A stretch of DNA of 4,439 nt, taken from the IMG/VR virus record IMGVR_UViG_3300023290_000107. One strand, written 5' to 3'. Below the pieces are notes generated by a model that worked only from the letters and a program-made list of their open reading frames with translations, searched no databases and had not been told where the DNA came from. Below are positions 1 to 4,439 of the stretch, one piece after another (position 1 is the stretch's first letter; each line of letters starts with the position of its first letter). A program made the translations under genes and the position numbers. This stretch comes from a virus. Taxonomy: Duplodnaviria; Heunggongvirae; Uroviricota; Caudoviricetes.

Positions 1-1796
1 AGCTGCCGACGCTGCGCCAGCGCCTGTTCCGCTGCGTGAGTATCCGTGAGAACGATGACGGCACGTATGCCATCACCGCCGTGCAGCATGTACCGGAGAA
101 AGAAGCCATCGTGGATAACGGGGCGCACTTTGACGGTGACCAGAGCGGCACGGTGAATGGTGTCACGCCGCCAGCAGTGCAGCACCTGACCGCCGAAGTC
201 ACTGCAGACAGCGGGGAATATCAGGTGCTGGCGCGATGGGACACACCGAAGGTGGTGAAGGGCGTGAGCTTCCTGCTCCGTCTGACCGTAACAGCGGACG
301 ACGGCAGTGAGCGACTGGTCAGCACGGCCCGGACGACGGAAACCACATACCGCTTCACGCAACTGGCGCTGGGGAACTACAGGCTGACAGTCCGGGCGGT
401 AAATGCCCGGGGGCAGCAGGGCGATCCGGCGTCGGTATCGTTCCGGATTGCCGCACCGGCAGCGCCGTCGCGGATTGAGCTGACGCCGGGCTATTTTCAG
501 ATAACCGCCACGCCGCATCTTGCGGTTTATGATCCGACGGTACAGTTTGAGTTCTGGTTCTCGGAAAAGCGGATTGCGGATATCAGGCAGGTTGAAACCA
601 CAGCACGCTATCTTGGCACGGCGCTGTACTGGATAGCCGCCAGTATCAATATCAAACCGGGCCATGATTATTATTTTTACGTTCGCAGTGTGAACACCGT
701 TGGCAAATCGGCATTCGTGGAGGCTGTCGGTCGGGCGAGCGATGATGCGGAAGGTTACCTGGATTTTTTCAAAGGAGAAATCGGGAAAACACATCTGGCC
801 CAGGAGTTGTGGACGCAGATTGATAACGGTCAGCTTGCGCCGGACCTGGCTGAAATCAGGACGTCCATTACGAATGTCAGCAATGAAATCACGCAGACCG
901 TCAATAAAAAACTGGAAGACCAGAGTGCGGCAATCCAGCAGATACAGAAAGTTCAGGTTGATACAAATAATAACCTGAACAGCATGTGGGCCGTGAAACT
1001 GCAGCAGATGAAGGACGGACGCCTTTATATTGCGGGTATCGGAGCCGGTATTGAGAATACGCCAGCAGGTATGCAGAGTCAGGTGCTTCTGGCTGCTGAC
1101 CGGATTGCGATGATTAATCCTGCGAATGGCAACACAAAGCCGATGTTTGTTGGTCAGGGCGATCAGATATTCATGAACGACGTGTTCCTGAAACGCCTGA
1201 CGGCTCCGACCATTACCAGCGGCGGTAATCCTCCGGCATTTTCCCTGACACCGGACGGGCGGCTGACGGCGAAAAATGCCGATATCAGCGGTAACGTGAA
1301 TGCGAACTCCGGGACGCTCAACAACGTCACGATTAACGAGAACTGTCGGGTTCTGGGAAAATTGTCCGCCAACCAGATTGAAGGCGATCTCGTTAAAACA
1401 GTGGGCAAAGCTTTCCCCCGGGACTCCCGTGCACCGGAACGGTGGCCATCAGGGACCATCACCGTCAGGGTTTATGACGATCAGCCGTTTGACCGGCAGA
1501 TTGTTATTCCGGCGGTGGCATTCAGCGGCGCTAAACATGAGCGGGAGAATAACGATATTTATTCGTCATGCCGCCTGATAGTACGGAAAAACGGTGCTGA
1601 AATTTATAACCGTACCGCGCTGGATAATACGCTGATTTACAGTGGTGTTATTGATATGCCAGCTGGTCGCGGCCACATGACGCTGGAGTTTTCGGTGTCA
1701 GCATGGCTGGTGAATAACTGGTATCCCACAGCAAGTATCAGCGATTTGCTGGTTGTGGTGATGAAGAAAGCCACCGCAGGCATCAGTATCAGCTGA
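1..1796 (+). CDS. J: Tail-tip host specificity protein J, C-terminal ~597 codons (5'-partial; reading frame begins at nt 3 and is open to the window edge; stop TGA at 1794-1796)
   Basis: Frame 3 is open from nt 3 to 1796 with no stop. The translation ([45 protein letters not shown]...[30 protein letters not shown]...DMPAGRG...) matches, from memory, long stretches of the C-terminal half of phage lambda J (gpJ, central tail fibre), including the fibronectin-III-like region and the C-terminal receptor-binding region. The track ORF 36..1796 is the same frame from an internal GTG. Gene order J-lom-stf is as in lambda. Confidence 0.93.
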
Positions 1797-1812
1797 ATTT
1801 TATAACCCATAT

Positions 1813-1842
1813 ACGGGCGCCAGAAATGGCGCCTTTTTTATT
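1813..1842 (+). terminator. Putative rho-independent terminator downstream of J
   Basis: Perfect inverted repeat GGCGCC (1816-1821) / 6-nt loop AGAAAT / GGCGCC (1828-1833), immediately followed by TTTTTTATT (1834-1842). Located 20 nt after the J stop codon. Confidence 0.6.
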
Positions 1843-1852
1843 GCAGAAAAGC

Positions 1853-1858
1853 GAGAGG
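1853..1858 (+). promoter_or_regulatory. Shine-Dalgarno sequence for lom (GAGAGG, 5-nt spacer to ATG at 1864)
   Basis: Purine-rich GAGAGG motif at appropriate spacing upstream of the only in-frame start codon of the lom ORF. Confidence 0.6.
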
Positions 1859-1863
1859 TAATT

Positions 1864-1935
1864 ATGCGTAAAGTTTGTGCAGCCATTTTGTCCGCAGCCA
1901 TCTGTCTGGCCGTATCCGGTGCGCCTGCATGGGCG
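1864..1935 (+). other. Sec signal peptide of Lom (24 codons, predicted signal peptidase I cleavage after AWA)
   Basis: Positively charged n-region (RK), hydrophobic core [12 protein letters not shown], and an A-x-A (AWA) cleavage motif followed by SEQQ. Confidence 0.7.
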
Positions 1936-2463
1936 TCTGAGCAGCAGGCCACACTGAGCGCAGGGTATCTTCATGCCCGTACGAACGCTCCCGGCAGCGA
2001 TAATCTGAACGGGATTAACGTGAAATACCATTATGAGTTTACGGACACGCTGGGGCTGATTACGTCATTCAGTTATGCCAACGCTGAAGATGAGCAAAAA
2101 ACGCATTACAGCGATACCCGCTGGCATGAAGATTCCGTGCGTAACCGCTGGTTCAGCGTGATGGCGGGGCCGTCTGTGCGCGTGAATGAATGGTTCAGCG
2201 CGTATGCGATGGCGGGTGTGGCTTACAGCCGTGTGTCGACTTTCTCCGGGGATTATCTGCAGGTGACCGACAATACGGGGAAAACGCACGATGTGCTGAT
2301 CGGAAGTGATGACGGTCGCCACAGCAACACGTCTCTGGCGTGGGGGGCTGGCGTGCAGTTTAACCCGACCGAATCCGTGACCATTGACCTTGCTTATGAA
2401 GGTTCCGGTAGTGGCGACTGGCGAACGGATGCATTTATTGTTGGTATCGGATACCGTTTCTGA
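1864..2463 (+). CDS. lom: Outer membrane protein Lom (Ail/Lom/OmpX family 8-stranded beta-barrel), 199 aa, prophage-encoded moron
   Basis: Complete ORF ATG 1864 to TGA 2461-2463. N-terminal signal peptide [24 protein letters not shown] with AWA-S cleavage motif. Alternating aromatic/hydrophobic beta-strand pattern and a C-terminal aromatic residue (…IGYRF) typical of outer-membrane beta-barrels. Sequence recognised as lambda Lom; sits between J and stf as in lambda. Confidence 0.93.
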
Positions 2464-2566
2464 CAACAGACGCCGATTTATCTTCTGTAAATATTGTTAT
2501 GATACGCAGGTTCATCCACTTTATGGGGTGAACTGCGTTTGAGGAAACGTAAAGTTACACTGTCCT

Positions 2567-2601
2567 GAAGCCCGTGGCGTCACTGCTGCGGGCTTTTTTT
2601 A
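2567..2601 (+). terminator. Putative rho-independent terminator downstream of lom, immediately upstream of stf
   Basis: Stem AAGCCCG (2568-2574) pairs with CGGGCTT (2589-2595); inner pairs extend to 2577-2578/2585-2586, with a 6-nt loop GTCACT. Followed by a run of seven T (2594-2600). GC-rich stem plus U-tract is canonical intrinsic terminator architecture. Confidence 0.65.
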
Positions 2602-2603
2602 TT

Positions 2604-2609
2604 GGTGGA
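2604..2609 (+). promoter_or_regulatory. Shine-Dalgarno sequence for stf (GGTGGA, 5-nt spacer to ATG at 2615)
   Basis: Purine-rich motif at appropriate distance from the ATG that opens the long frame-2 ORF. Confidence 0.5.
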
Positions 2610-2614
2610 AAAGT

Positions 2615-4439
2615 ATGACAGTAAAAATTTCTGGCGTGCTTAAAGATGGCACAGGAAAACCAGTACAGAACTGCACCATTGTGCTGAAGGCCAGACGAAC
2701 CAGCAGCACGGTGGTGGTGAACACGGTGGCCTCTGAAAATCCGGATGAAGCCGGACGTTACAGCATGGATGTTGAGCATGGTCAGTACAGCGTCACCCTG
2801 CTGGTTGAAGGTTTTCCGCCTTCACATGCCGGGACCATTACCGTCTATGAAGGTTCCAGACCAGGTACGCTGAATGATTTTCTCGGTGCCATGACGGAGG
2901 ATGATGTCCGACCGGAGGCACTGCGCCGCTTTGAGCAGATGGTGGAAGAGGTGTCACGTAACGCCTCCGCGGTTGCACAGAATACGGCAGCCGCGAAAAA
3001 ATCAGCCAGCGATGCCAGTGCATCAGCCAGCGAGGCGGCAACTCATGCAACCGATGCTGCAGCCTCAGCACGTGCCGCCAGCACGTCAGCCGGACAGGCC
3101 GCGTCGTCGGCTCAGTCAGCGTCTTCCAGCGCAGGAACGGCATCGACAAAGGCCCGTGAAGCAGCAAAAAGTGCTGCTGCTGCAGAGTCATCAAAAAGCG
3201 CGGCAGCTACCAGCGCCAGTGCCGCGAAAACGTCAGAAACGAATGCCGCAGCGTCACAACAATCAGCAGCCACTTCTGCATCCACCGCGACCACGAAAGC
3301 GTCAGAAGCAGCCACTTCAGCACGGGATGCGTCGGCTTCAAAAGAGGCGGCAAAATCATCAGAAACGAACGCATCATCAAGCGCCAGTAGTGCCGCTTCC
3401 TCGGCAACGGCGGCAGGAAATTCCGCGAAGGCGGCAAAAACGTCCGAGACGAACGCCAGGTCTTCTGAAACGGCAGCGGGACAGAGCGCCTCGGCTGCGG
3501 CAGGCTCAAAAACAGCGGCTGCATCATCTGCCAGCGCCGCGTCAACAAGTGCCGGGCAGGCCTCAGCCAGTGCCACCGCTGCCGGAAAGTCGGCAGAAAG
3601 TGCCGCATCGTCTGCTTCAACAGCCACAACGAAGGCTGGCGAAGCCACTGAACAGGCCAGCGCAGCAGCGAGGTCTGCTTCCGCAGCGAAGACATCCGAA
3701 ACGAACGCGAAAGCGTCGGAAACCAGCGCAGAATCCTCAAAAACGGCTGCCGCATCGTCCGCCAGTTCGGCGGCGTCATCGGCATCATCTGCGTCTGCTT
3801 CAAAAGATGAGGCGACCAGACAGGCGTCAGCAGCAAAGGGCAGCGCCACGACGGCATCCACGAAGGCGACAGAGGCAGCTGGCAGTGCGACGGCGGCAGC
3901 TCAGAGCAAAAGTACGGCGGAATCCGCGGCAACGCGCGCTGAGACAGCGGCAAAACGGGCAGAGGATATTGCATCCGCCGTGGCGCTTGAGGATGCGAGC
4001 ACGACGAAAAAGGGGATAGTACAGCTCAGCAGTGCGACTAACAGCACTTCCGAGTCACTGGCGGCAACGCCAAAAGCCGTTAAGGCCGCGTATGAGCTGG
4101 CTAACGGGAAATACACCGCACAGGATGCAACGACAGCACAGAAAGGGATAGTTCAGCTTAGCAACGCGACCAACAGCACATCTGAAATGCTGGCGGCAAC
4201 GCCAAAGTCGGTAAAGGCAGCCTATGACCTTGCTAACGGGAAATATACTGCTCAGGACGCTACGACAGCACAAAAAGGAATTGTCCAGCTCAGTAGTGCA
4301 ACCAACAGCACATCTGAAATGCTGGCGGCAACGCCAAAGTCGGTAAAGGCAGCCTATGACCTTGCTAACGGGAAATATACTGCTCAGGACGCTACGACAG
4401 CACAAAAAGGAATTGTCCAGCTCAGTAGTGCAACCAACA
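2615..4439 (+). CDS. stf: Side tail fibre protein Stf, N-terminal 608 codons (3'-partial; ORF runs off the window end with no stop)
   Basis: ATG at 2615; the frame (codon starts = 2 mod 3) was translated by hand and is open to nt 4439. The N-terminus MTVKISGVLKDGTGKPVQNCTIVLKARRTSSTVVVNTVASENPDEAGRYSMDVEHGQYSVTLLVEGFPPSHAGTITVYE... closely resembles the lambda Stf (orf-401) N-terminus as I recall it. It is followed by an Ala/Ser-rich fibrous shaft and KGIVQLSSATNSTSE.LAATPKAVK tail-fibre repeat motifs. Absent from the supplied ORF track, evidently because no stop lies within the window. Confidence 0.92.
   Translation, partial: MTVKISGVLKDGTGKPVQNCTIVLKARRTSSTVVVNTVASENPDEAGRYSMDVEHGQYSVTLLVEGFPPSHAGTITVYEGSRPGTLNDFLGAMTEDDVRPEALRRFEQMVEEVSRNASAVAQNTAAAKKSASDASASASEAATHATDAAASARAASTSAGQAASSAQSASSSAGTASTKAREAAKSAAAAESSKSAAATSASAAKTSETNAAASQQSAATSASTATTKASEAATSARDASASKEAAKSSETNASSSASSAASSATAAGNSAKAAKTSETNARSSETAAGQSASAAAGSKTAAASSASAASTSAGQASASATAAGKSAESAASSASTATTKAGEATEQASAAARSASAAKTSETNAKASETSAESSKTAAASSASSAASSASSASASKDEATRQASAAKGSATTASTKATEAAGSATAAAQSKSTAESAATRAETAAKRAEDIASAVALEDASTTKKGIVQLSSATNSTSESLAATPKAVKAAYELANGKYTAQDATTAQKGIVQLSNATNSTSEMLAATPKSVKAAYDLANGKYTAQDATTAQKGIVQLSSATNSTSEMLAATPKSVKAAYDLANGKYTAQDATTAQKGIVQLSSATN
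2960..4000 (+). repeat. Degenerate 42-bp (14-codon) periodic repeat region encoding the Ala/Ser/Thr-rich shaft of Stf (~24 units)
   Basis: The protein segments cleanly into 14-mers, e.g. KTSETNAAASQQSA / ATSASTATTKASEA / ATSARDASASKEAA / KSSETNASSSASSA / ASSATAAGNSAKAA / KTSETNARSSETAA, with nearly every unit ending in A-A or E-A. The recurring K-[TS]-S-E-T-N-A motif starts at nt 3227, 3353, 3437 and 3689; the spacings 126, 84 and 252 bp are all exact multiples of 42. Confidence 0.8.
4001..4439 (+). repeat. 132-bp tandem direct repeats within stf (about 3.3 copies in window; unit encodes a 44-aa phage tail-fibre repeat)
   Basis: Units begin at the K codons at 4010, 4142, 4274 and 4406 (the last truncated by the window end). 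The encoded unit is KGIVQLS[S/N]ATNSTSE[S/M]LAATPK[A/S]VKAAY[E/D]LANGKYTAQDATTAQ. Nucleotides 4169-4307 are identical to 4301-4439, so the sequence is perfectly 132-periodic from 4169 to the end. Copy 1 (4010-4141) is the most diverged. Confidence 0.9.

What the first reader, a model, noticed from the sequence alone, without database searches (positions are those of the whole stretch)
1797..2614. lom organised as a terminator-bracketed moron between J and stf
lom is a complete gene with its own RBS, a Sec signal peptide and an outer-membrane beta-barrel signature. A terminator hairpin lies upstream (1813-1842) and a stronger one downstream (2567-2601), making it an insulated accessory cassette inserted between two tail genes. 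Lom belongs to the Ail/Lom/OmpX family, members of which are linked to adhesion to host cells and serum resistance, and lambda lom is known to be expressed from the prophage. Its presence suggests the element can contribute lysogenic-conversion phenotypes to its host. The lom promoter is not identifiable with confidence from the 67-bp J-lom gap and may lie within the 3' end of J.
Basis: partly seen in the sequence, partly recalled or inferred. Interest (0 to 1): 0.4.

Follow-up and report, generated by a model that had tools for sequence, protein, structure and literature searches.

The report
Lambda-type lom gene between two terminators
This is the well-known lom outer-membrane-protein gene of a lambda-like prophage, sitting between two transcription terminators as in phage lambda, so it is ordinary; the one unreported detail is an extra conserved non-coding block after lom that might encode a small RNA.

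Summary
Window 1864-2463 encodes a complete 199-aa Ail/Lom outer-membrane beta-barrel protein (Pfam PF06316, E 1.6e-123) with an RBS and a signal peptide. It lies between the 3' end of J and the start of stf. Hairpin-plus-T-run terminators sit at 1815-1842 and 2567-2601. The upstream hairpin is kept across phages by compensatory base changes.

The layout is already known. Lambda has the same arrangement, GenBank records for phages Ayreon and mEp460 annotate both terminators, and reviews call lom a moron.

The "self-contained cassette" reading is only partly supported:
- Only 21 nt, holding the RBS, separate the upstream T-run from the ATG, so no promoter fits inside the bracket.
- GC content equals that of the neighbours.
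- In EPEC E2348/69, which carries an orthologous lom (same Lom allele group; locus not aligned as a whole) followed by a spacer differing at one base, lom is nearly silent in the lysogen.
- Published work shows lambda Lom rises late in infection and blocks lambda-vir, pointing to a late-operon, anti-readsorption role.

One new detail: the lom-stf spacer is 151 nt, against 64 nt in lambda. The extra, non-coding block carries a conserved extended -10-like motif and a hairpin ahead of the terminator. It is a candidate small RNA of about 92 nt, unproven and absent from EPEC Hfq RIL-seq data.

The parts
1..1796 (+). 3' part of the tail tip / host-specificity gene J. The ORF runs off the window start and its stop codon ends at 1796.
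   Evidence: Pfam Ig_J, Ig_J_second, Phage_Tail_Tip and Ig_GpJ_C. RefSeq annotates the matching gene as gpJ in prophages 98.9% identical to the window.
1815..1842 (+). Intrinsic-terminator-like hairpin (GGGCGCCA-GAAA-TGGCGCCT) followed by TTTTTTATT. It probably ends unmodified transcription coming out of J. It corresponds in position to the hairpin after J in lambda.
   Evidence: Found by the terminator scan. Folds at -15.7 kcal/mol with z -3.8. Three pairs show double compensatory changes and the helix is 96.7% paired across 15 spacer variants. Annotated as a terminator in the Ayreon and mEp460 records.
1853..1858 (+). lom ribosome-binding site GAGAGG, 5 nt before the ATG.
   Evidence: Read from the sequence. 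Invariant in all lom allele groups.
1864..2463 (+). lom: 199-aa precursor of an 8-stranded outer-membrane beta-barrel of the Ail/Lom/OmpX family. The signal peptide covers about residues 1-24.
   Evidence: PF06316 full length, E 1.6e-123. 41% identical to lambda Lom. Matches PDB chains for Lom (9wso_C, 4e-47) and for Ail and OmpX (about 1e-18 to 5e-19) over the whole mature part. 85-97% identical to Lom of many lambdoid and Stx phages.
2464..2550 (+). Extra non-coding block of about 87 nt that is absent from lambda-type lom-stf spacers. It always directly follows a lom allele ending in ...IVGIGYR(F/I).
   Evidence: Alignment with lambda and other phages. 157 copies were found, all directly after a lom stop codon. 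Present in 1650 of 5426 E. coli genomes at about one copy each. No ORF lies inside it, and the variants differ by 1-nt indels.
2495..2503 (+). Extended -10-like motif TGtTATGAT, a candidate promoter for a small transcript.
   Evidence: It reads as a perfect TGnTATAAT in three diverged lineages (n = g, t, c) and is degraded in one. In the window alone it is not above chance: 1.6 matches expected.
2504..2538 (+). Inner hairpin (ACGCAG-G-TTCATCC ... GGGGTGAA-CTGCGT) with no T-run. It would be the 5' stem-loop of the candidate small RNA or a structure in the lom 3'UTR.
   Evidence: About -18 kcal/mol, z -2.9. Kept in all variants through one-sided changes only; there are no double compensatory changes.
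2567..2601 (+). Intrinsic terminator (GAAGCCCGTGGC-GTCACT-GCTGCGGGCTTT followed by a T-run). It ends the lom transcript and, if it exists, the small RNA.
   Evidence: -20.5 kcal/mol, z -3.25. It is homologous to the lambda-type terminator after lom. Identity to diverged lineages peaks here at 0.93-1.0.
2615..4439 (+). 5' part of the side tail fibre gene stf. It runs off the window end.
   Evidence: Pfam phage_tail_N and Phage_fiber_2. Matches PDB tail fibre chains 9e7m and 9mgh over residues 1-94.

Best explanation
The window is the J-lom-stf junction of a lambdoid prophage of E. coli. lom encodes a Sec-exported, BAM-inserted 8-stranded outer-membrane barrel of the Ail/Lom family.

lom is embedded in the late (tail) operon between two intrinsic terminators and has no promoter of its own inside that bracket.

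Proposed mechanism:
- During lytic growth, Q-modified RNA polymerase from pR' reads through both terminators. Lom is then made in quantity late in infection, where it most likely reduces wasteful re-adsorption or superinfection by kin phage. This step is inferred from lambda data.
- In the repressed prophage, the upstream terminator stops stray transcription leaving J and the downstream one stops transcription entering stf. lom is therefore expressed at most weakly or conditionally, from an unidentified upstream or overlapping promoter.
- Adhesion-type lysogenic conversion is a possible secondary effect.

In this window and about 30% of E. coli genomes, the downstream spacer carries an extra conserved block of about 87 nt. 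It has an extended -10-like motif and a hairpin, and it shares the lom terminator. It is a candidate independent small RNA or a structured 3'UTR.
For: Gene identity and completeness.

Terminators: covariation, and depositor annotations in related phages.

Same layout in lambda.

No room for a promoter: the T-run ends at 1842, the RBS is at 1853-1858 and the ATG is at 1864. No + strand promoter-like site exists in the window.

Late expression and anti-lambda-vir activity of lambda Lom: PMC12366544.

Near-zero reads for the orthologous lom in the EPEC lysogen: with locus identity shown.

Modular exchange: Lom allele groups occur with several J receptor-domain groups and with two spacer types.

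Extra block.
Against: - Older literature (Reeve & Shaw 1979; Barondess & Beckwith 1990, cited from memory and through PMC7067206) reports lambda lom expression in lysogens, so a promoter must exist for lambda at least.
- The EPEC read counts may be depressed by multi-mapping among the strain's several lambdoid prophages, and they cover only two conditions.
- The anti-phage effect was shown for lambda's Lom, which is only 41% identical, and under over-expression.
- Terminator function and Q read-through were not measured for this element.
Confidence: 0.8

Rival explanations
1. Classical autonomous moron. lom would have its own constitutive promoter in or overlapping the 3' end of J. It would be expressed mainly from the repressed prophage and would serve the host through adhesion or serum resistance. 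The flanking terminators would simply insulate it.
For: Reviews describe lambda Lom as a prophage-expressed moron product that improves adhesion. The gene is bracketed by terminators. Lom alleles are exchanged independently of J and stf alleles. A TTATAACCC motif just after the J stop codon is conserved in the Lom1 and Lom2 groups and could be part of a weak -10.
Against: No sigma-70-like promoter was detected on the + strand. Any transcription start at or before about 1813 would include the full terminator hairpin. TATAAC lacks the critical final T. The 3' end of J differs between J groups that share the same lom. GC content equals that of the neighbours. The EPEC lysogen shows lom at 0.3-2 normalised reads. 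lom was undetected in lambda lysogen arrays. Serum resistance has not been shown for Lom.
Confidence: 0.2
2. The extra block at 2464-2601 is an independent small RNA gene. An extended -10 promoter at 2495-2503 would give a start near 2508-2511, a 5' hairpin, a conserved single-stranded stretch (2534-2566) and the shared terminator, producing an RNA of about 92 nt. It would be a second, RNA-type moron placed right behind lom, as PasB sits between tail genes I and J.
For: TG and TATAAT are kept while the intervening base varies in three diverged lineages; the window has TATGAT. The block is non-coding and tolerates indels. Identity to diverged lineages peaks at 0.97-1.0 over 2520-2600, while flanking coding DNA is 0.3-0.75. 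The layout of 5' stem-loop, unpaired region and terminator with a U-run is typical of an sRNA. There is a precedent: PasB is an Hfq-bound sRNA in an intergenic spacer of the same tail operon in the same EPEC prophage.
Against: In E2348/69, which carries this spacer with one base different, the complete RIL-seq feature table lists no RNA from the lom-stf gap or from either gene's UTR. There is no Rfam match at E <= 1 and no RefSeq ncRNA annotation. The motif is at chance level in the window alone. The commonest version (139 of 157 copies) is the weaker TATGAT, and there is no usable -35. The fold shows no double compensatory changes. Conservation could instead reflect a recombination junction, the terminator, or the stf translation start; the short lambda-type spacer is equally conserved.
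Confidence: 0.3
3. The extra block is only the structured 3'UTR of a particular lom 3'-end module (alleles ending ...IVGIGYRF). It would have been inherited from another Ail/Lom-family gene by recombination and kept because it stabilises lom mRNA or merely because it is linked. It would have no promoter activity.
For: The block always travels with the ...IVGIGYR(F/I) C-terminus, in both Lom1 and Lom2 backgrounds. Similarity to diverged lineages already rises inside the lom 3' end from about 2400. Many Stx phages lose similarity to the window at about 2423-2453. The last 65 nt or so are homologous to the lambda-type spacer. There is no expression evidence for a separate RNA.
Against: This does not explain why TG-n-TATAAT is kept or restored in three lineages while the surrounding bases vary. 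It also does not explain why the most conserved stretch is the unpaired 2534-2566 region and not the lom coding end.
Confidence: 0.45

Closest known systems
Bacteriophage lambda lom locus (J - hairpin - lom - hairpin - stf/orf-401; NC_001416 18965-19585)
   Same: Same gene order and same strand. A hairpin plus T-run follows J and another follows lom. The RBS core GAGAGGT is conserved. The Lom fold family is the same and the C-terminal motif [10 protein letters not shown] is conserved.
   Different: Lom is only 41% identical (199 vs 206 aa), so it is a different allele group. The upstream hairpin sequence is unrelated. The lom-stf spacer is 151 nt against 64 nt, because of the extra block of about 87 nt.
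Lom1-type loci of lambdoid and Stx phages (PhiR40_1, PhiR49_2, vB_EcoS-569R4, Ayreon, mEp460, Stx2a_F349) and the UTI89 / APEC O1 / E2348/69 PP6 prophages
   Same: Lom is 85-97% identical and the J-lom spacer is the same. Ayreon and mEp460 annotate terminators on both sides. The window is 98.9% identical over its whole length to ExPEC prophages. The long spacer is 96.9-99.5% identical in PhiR40_1 and E2348/69 PP6.
   Different: Ayreon, mEp460 and most Stx phages carry the short 64-nt lambda-type spacer and a Lom C-terminus ...IVGVGYKF.
Morons of lambdoid phages (Juhala et al. 2000; Cumby, Davidson & Maxwell 2012, PMC3594210)
   Same: An accessory gene not needed for virion assembly, inserted between conserved tail genes, followed by a terminator, and exchanged as a module.
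   Different: There is no recognisable promoter of its own inside the bracket, GC content does not deviate, and prophage-state expression is not evident for this allele.
Ail (Yersinia), OmpX (E. coli), Rck/PagC (Salmonella)
   Same: Homologous 8-stranded barrels. PDB Ail 3qra scores 5e-19 and OmpX about 1e-18 over the mature protein. NCBIfam Rck and OmpX models are hit.
   Different: The NCBIfam scores are far below the equivalog cut-offs (109 vs 258 for Rck, 96 vs 176 for OmpX), so this is not an orthologue of either. The extracellular loops are longer. Serum-resistance and invasion functions cannot be transferred.
PasB sRNA (Pearl Mizrahi et al. 2021, PMC8550237; Zhu, Shabalina & Storz 2026 preprint)
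   Same: PasB is a small Hfq-bound RNA encoded in an intergenic spacer of the tail operon of the same EPEC prophage (PP6) that carries this lom-stf spacer. It is a precedent for the candidate RNA here.
   Different: PasB lies between genes I and J on the opposite strand, and its sequence is different. The lom-stf spacer produced no RIL-seq entry.

Membership tests
Ail/Lom family outer-membrane beta-barrel (Pfam PF06316) | Full-length match to the family model above the curated cut-off | tested here: met
   410.3 bits against a cut-off of 23, residues 1-199 on model 1-199.
Ail/Lom family outer-membrane beta-barrel (Pfam PF06316) | N-terminal Sec signal peptide with an A-x-A cleavage site | tested here: met
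   [24 protein letters not shown]|SEQQ, read from the translation. Alignments to mature Ail and OmpX start at residues 26-29. No dedicated predictor was run.
Ail/Lom family outer-membrane beta-barrel (Pfam PF06316) | Eight-stranded barrel homologous to solved Lom, Ail and OmpX structures, ending in an aromatic residue | tested here: met
   PDB sequence matches: 9wso_C Lom 3.9e-47, 3qra Ail 5.4e-19, OmpX about 1e-18, each covering the whole mature chain. The C-terminus is ...GYRF. No 3-D model was built.
OmpX or Rck orthologue (NCBIfam equivalogs NF006917, NF011777) | Score above the equivalog cut-off | tested here: not met
   95.8 bits against a cut-off of 176 (OmpX) and 109.1 against 258 (Rck).
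Lambdoid moron (Juhala/Hendrix definition) | Extra gene between conserved, syntenic phage genes that is dispensable for the virion | tested here: met
   It lies between J and stf in more than 150 loci. lom is a frameshifted pseudogene in several prophages with the neighbouring genes retained. Dispensability itself rests on established knowledge of lambda.
Lambdoid moron (Juhala/Hendrix definition) | Own promoter upstream of the gene | tested here: inconclusive
   No + strand sigma-70-like site exists in the window. Only 21 nt lie between the upstream T-run and the ATG. Weak, activator-dependent or alternative-sigma promoters cannot be excluded.
Lambdoid moron (Juhala/Hendrix definition) | Own factor-independent terminator downstream | tested here: met
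   2567-2601: -20.5 kcal/mol with a T7 run. The terminator at the equivalent position, in the homologous short spacer, is annotated as such in Ayreon and mEp460.
Lambdoid moron (Juhala/Hendrix definition) | Base composition different from the flanking genes | tested here: not met
   GC is 0.55 for lom, 0.55 for J and 0.58 for stf. GC3 is 0.595, 0.625 and 0.515.
Lambdoid moron (Juhala/Hendrix definition) | Expression from the repressed prophage | tested here: inconclusive
Published EPEC RNA-seq for the orthologous locus gives a baseMean of 0.3-2. Lambda lom is reported as expressed in some studies and undetected in another.
Hfq-dependent trans-acting sRNA (for the candidate at about 2508-2601) | Own promoter, intrinsic terminator with a U-run, detectable transcript, Hfq association | tested here: inconclusive
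   The promoter-like motif is conserved across lineages and a terminator is present. However, there is no transcript or Hfq evidence in the EPEC RIL-seq tables and no Rfam family match.

The most novel reading that the evidence does not exclude
The 'lom terminator' region of this prophage type is a second, RNA-type moron. It would be an unannotated small RNA gene of about 92 nt with an extended -10 promoter at 2495-2503, a start near 2510 and an end at 2601. It sits directly behind lom in about 30% of E. coli genomes, including UTI89, APEC O1, EC958, O104:H4 and E2348/69, and would be expressed under conditions not yet sampled.
Probability: 0.25. Interest if true: 0.5.

Novelty: already known. 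Interest (0 to 1): 0.15.

Why it matters
The finding as stated matters little. The J-terminator-lom-terminator-stf layout is textbook lambda biology and is already annotated in related phage records.

Two points are of modest value.

1. The sequence shows that lom has no promoter space of its own inside the terminator bracket. Together with recent evidence that Lom blocks kin-phage infection and peaks late, this favours reading lom as a late-operon gene that benefits the phage, over reading it as a host-benefiting conversion gene. That matters when prophage 'virulence genes' are counted in genome surveys.

2. A conserved non-coding block behind lom in roughly a third of E. coli genomes has not been described. 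It could be a further prophage small RNA. If it is transcribed, it would add to the growing set of tail-operon sRNAs such as PasB.

Tried and rejected
- Rfam scan of the whole window at E <= 1. Nothing was found in 1797-2614. The only hits were two chance-level isrG matches inside stf.

- PasB as the identity of the candidate RNA. Rejected: PasB maps between genes I and J on the opposite strand.

- AgvB, AsxR or Esr41. These have Rfam families and none matched. Tree et al. 2014 mention nothing near lom.

- Full-text search for the spacer sequence. No paper contains it.

- Dispersed repeat or MITE as the origin of the extra block. Rejected: about one copy per genome, always directly after lom.

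- Small peptide in the block. Rejected: no ORF, and the variants carry indels.

- Din-family invertase crossover site (gix/cix-like) in the conserved TTCTGTAAAT stretch. Considered by eye and rejected, because the second half-site is missing.

- Strict co-variation of Lom alleles with J receptor-binding-domain alleles, which would indicate a matched pair. Not supported: the association is only partial, and J2 and J4 each occur with two Lom groups. Sampling is redundant, so linkage alone can explain the association.

- J or Stf as Lom's partner in PDB 9wso. Neither protein's PDB hits include 9wso, so the partner remains unknown to me.

- Divergent Lom alleles in Shigella loci (46-69% identity). 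These turned out to be frameshifted pseudogenes.

- Promoter inside the bracket. Every hexamer between 1835 and 1863 was checked by eye in the three allele groups, and none has A at position 2 together with T at position 6.

- Liu et al. 2013 and Casjens & Hendrix 2015 could not be read because they are not held.
Full report
**What is in the window.** The 4439-base window holds three genes on the + strand:
- the 3' part of a long ORF ending at 1796;
- a 199-codon ORF at 1864-2463;
- an ORF starting at 2615 that runs off the end.

Pfam identifies them as follows. The first is the C-terminal half of tail tip protein J (Ig_J, Ig_J_second, Phage_Tail_Tip, Ig_GpJ_C). The second is a full-length Ail/Lom protein (PF06316, 410 bits, E 1.6e-123, residues 1-199 on model 1-199). 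The third is a side tail fibre (phage_tail_N, Phage_fiber_2).

The whole window is 98.9% identical to prophages of ExPEC strains UTI89, APEC O1, NU14 and PMV-1. Related sequence is found in 5038 of 5426 complete E. coli genomes. This is therefore the J-lom-stf junction of a very common lambdoid prophage.

**Checking the observation.**

The gene is complete:
- The RBS GAGAGG lies 5 nt before the ATG.
- The N-terminus [24 protein letters not shown]|SEQQ has the charged, hydrophobic and A-x-A parts of a Sec signal peptide.
- The protein ends in ...GYRF.
- Sequence searches of the PDB match lambda Lom (9wso_C, 4e-47), Yersinia Ail (3qra, 5e-19) and OmpX (about 1e-18) over the whole mature chain.

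The two hairpins are real:
- 1815-1834 plus T6: 8 pairs, -15.7 kcal/mol, z -3.8.
- 2567-2596 plus T7: 12-13 pairs, -20.5 kcal/mol, z -3.25.
- The number of terminator-like sites in the whole window is not above chance (7 against 4.5 +/- 2.2). These two are the best sites, however, and they sit exactly in the two gaps.

The upstream helix has comparative support. I collected about 160 related loci and found 33 distinct J-lom spacers.
- The helix occurs as GGGCGCC/GGCGCC, GGGCACC/GGTGCC and GGGCGTC/GACGCC, with different loops in the Lom2 group, and as an unrelated hairpin in lambda.
- On 15 distinct sequences it is 96.7% paired, against 37-60% when the partner is slid.
- Three pairs have double compensatory changes, and 0 of 500 shuffles reach the observed covariation score.

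**Is it new?** No.
- Lambda has the same order of J, hairpin, lom, hairpin and stf.
- The GenBank records of phages Ayreon and mEp460, whose Lom is 87-88% identical, annotate rho-independent terminators on both sides of lom.
- Reviews call Lom a moron product expressed from the prophage and linked to adhesion.
- From memory, and not checked here, Luk and Szybalski described tandem terminators distal to J in lambda in the 1980s.

**Where the interpretation needs correcting.**

*1. No promoter fits inside the bracket.* The upstream T-run ends at 1842, the RBS is at 1853-1858 and the ATG is at 1864.
- No hexamer in 1835-1863 has the A at position 2 and T at position 6 of a -10 element, in any allele group.
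- The consensus scan finds no + strand promoter-like site anywhere in the window.
- A promoter in the 3' end of J would put the complete terminator hairpin into the lom leader.
- That part of J is not conserved among J allele groups carrying the same lom.
- The only conserved upstream motif, TTATAACCC just after the J stop codon, lacks the essential final T of a -10.

*2. lom is not compositionally distinct.* GC is 0.55, against 0.55 for J and 0.58 for stf.

*3. Expression data for the orthologous lom are negative.* EPEC E2348/69 prophage PP6 carries an orthologous lom, E2348C_1438 (same Lom allele group), followed by a spacer that differs from the window's at a single loop base.

| Gene | baseMean, activating | baseMean, non-activating |
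|---|---|---|
| lom (E2348C_1438) | 2.0 | 0.34 |
| J | 15 | 6.7 |
| stf | 7 | 5.3 |
| pasB | 482 | 1082 |

- Morons further downstream (E2348C_1441 and 1442) reach 48-538.
- Loss of multi-mapping reads is a caveat.
- Osterhout et al. also failed to detect lom in lambda lysogens and state that little is known about its promoter.

*4. Function.* A 2025 study reports that lambda Lom gives strong protection against lambda-vir but not T7. It also reports that Lom levels in a lysogen are too low to protect and that expression rises dramatically late in infection. The authors propose prevention of non-productive adsorption.

**Most likely mechanism.** lom is best read as a gene of the late operon.
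- Q-modified polymerase reads through both terminators during lytic growth and makes Lom in quantity. This is inferred from lambda.
- In the prophage the two terminators confine stray transcription, and lom is at most weakly expressed.
- Lysogenic-conversion effects such as adhesion remain possible but secondary.
- Serum resistance is documented for Ail, Rck and lambda Bor, not for Lom. The window protein scores far below the NCBIfam equivalog cut-offs for Rck and OmpX.

**Modularity.** I clustered Lom, the last 130 aa of J, the spacers and the first 130 aa of the downstream protein over 165 loci. There are three main Lom groups:

| Lom group | Description | J receptor-domain groups it occurs with |
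|---|---|---|
| Lom1 | window type, 199 aa | J1, J2, J3, J5, J6 |
| Lom2 | 207 aa | J2, J4, J7 |
| Lom3 | lambda, 206 aa | J4 |

- The modules are linked but do recombine. A strictly matched J-Lom pair is therefore not supported, although sampling is redundant.
- lom is a frameshifted pseudogene in several Shigella and E. coli prophages. This is consistent with dispensability.

**The one unreported feature.**

The lom-stf spacer here is 151 nt. In lambda and most relatives it is 64 nt (58-65 nt in a few variants). The last 65 nt or so, including the terminator, are homologous to the short spacer. About 87 extra nucleotides (2464-2550) follow the lom stop codon directly.

Distribution:
- The block is in 1650 of 5426 E. 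coli genomes at about one copy each and in five phage records.
- All 157 copies I recovered lie immediately after a lom gene ending in ...IVGIGYR(F/I). It is therefore not a dispersed repeat.
- It contains no ORF, and its variants differ by single-base indels.

Features:
- It holds TGtTATGAT at 2495-2503.
- In three diverged lineages the same position reads TGgTATAAT, TGtTATAAT or TGcTATAAT, which are perfect extended -10 elements differing only at the free base. In one lineage it is degraded.
- A hairpin follows at 2504-2538, then a nearly invariant unpaired stretch at 2534-2566, then the terminator.
- Against two diverged lineages, identity peaks at 0.97-1.0 over 2520-2600. The flanking lom 3' third and stf are only 0.3-0.75 identical.

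This is the anatomy of a small RNA gene of about 92 nt sharing the lom terminator. There is a precedent in the same EPEC prophage: PasB, an Hfq-bound sRNA between tail genes I and J. PasB is a different sequence on the other strand.

Evidence against the small-RNA reading:
- The complete RIL-seq feature table for E2348/69 has no entry from the lom-stf gap.
- Rfam has no match, and RefSeq annotates nothing there.
- The motif is at chance level within one window.
- The commonest version is the weaker TATGAT (139 of 157 copies).
- There is no usable -35.
- The fold shows only one-sided changes.
- The short lambda-type spacer is equally conserved. Conservation may therefore simply mark a recombination junction plus the terminator and the stf start region.

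I put the independent-sRNA reading at about 0.25-0.3. A structured 3'UTR travelling with a particular lom 3'-end module is somewhat more likely.

**Verdict.** The element is a member of a well-described kind, and the arrangement is already annotated in public records. The 'insulated accessory cassette for lysogenic conversion' reading is only partly supported. The sequence and recent literature favour a late-operon gene with an anti-readsorption role and weak or conditional prophage expression. Interest is low. The extra conserved block behind lom is a small, testable lead.

Noticed in passing
window 2464-2601: The lom-stf spacer carries about 87 extra nucleotides compared with lambda. They include an extended -10-like motif that is conserved across lineages, an inner hairpin and a near-invariant unpaired stretch before the terminator. 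This is a candidate unannotated small RNA, present in about 30% of E. coli genomes.
   Followed up: yes
window 3195-3608 (- strand): Two weak Rfam isrG matches (19.5 and 17.4 bits against a gathering score of 100) fall inside the Ala/Ser-rich part of stf and are almost certainly chance. A 2026 preprint reports IsrG 'structural hits' as common near PasB, which may be this same stf artefact.
   Followed up: partly
window 4008-4439: A tandem array of a 132-nt unit, 3.3 copies at 88% match, lies in the stf coding sequence. It corresponds to the Phage_fiber_2 repeats and runs off the window end.
   Followed up: partly
L007, L008, L010, L012 (Shigella flexneri and E. coli chromosomes): lom is a frameshifted pseudogene in several prophages while the J-lom spacer and its hairpin stay 98-100% identical to the window.
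   Followed up: partly
L030 and L059, J-lom spacer: In this variant of the upstream terminator the loop region is inverted (CAGAAATG becomes CATTTCTG) while the stem is unchanged.
   Followed up: no
phage record OM475427.1 18675-18794 (Escherichia phage D2; hit H85, not fetched as a locus): A 40-aa match to the Lom C-terminus (residues 160-199, 72% identity) lies under a CDS annotated as host specificity protein J. It may be a lom remnant fused to or overlapping J.
   Followed up: no
L060, downstream of lom: The mosaic break falls exactly after the terminator T-run. The long spacer is intact up to GGGCTTTTTT and unrelated sequence follows, so the terminator belongs to the lom-side module.
   Followed up: no
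L182 2762-2844 (E2348/69 PP6, - strand): The published sRNA PasB maps to the spacer between tail genes I and J of the same prophage type, antisense to the tail operon. The window begins inside J and does not reach the I-J spacer, so whether this prophage carries PasB could not be checked.
   Followed up: partly
PDB 9wso chain C: A recently solved structure contains lambda Lom. Its partner chains are not J or Stf and could not be identified with the tools available.
   Followed up: partly
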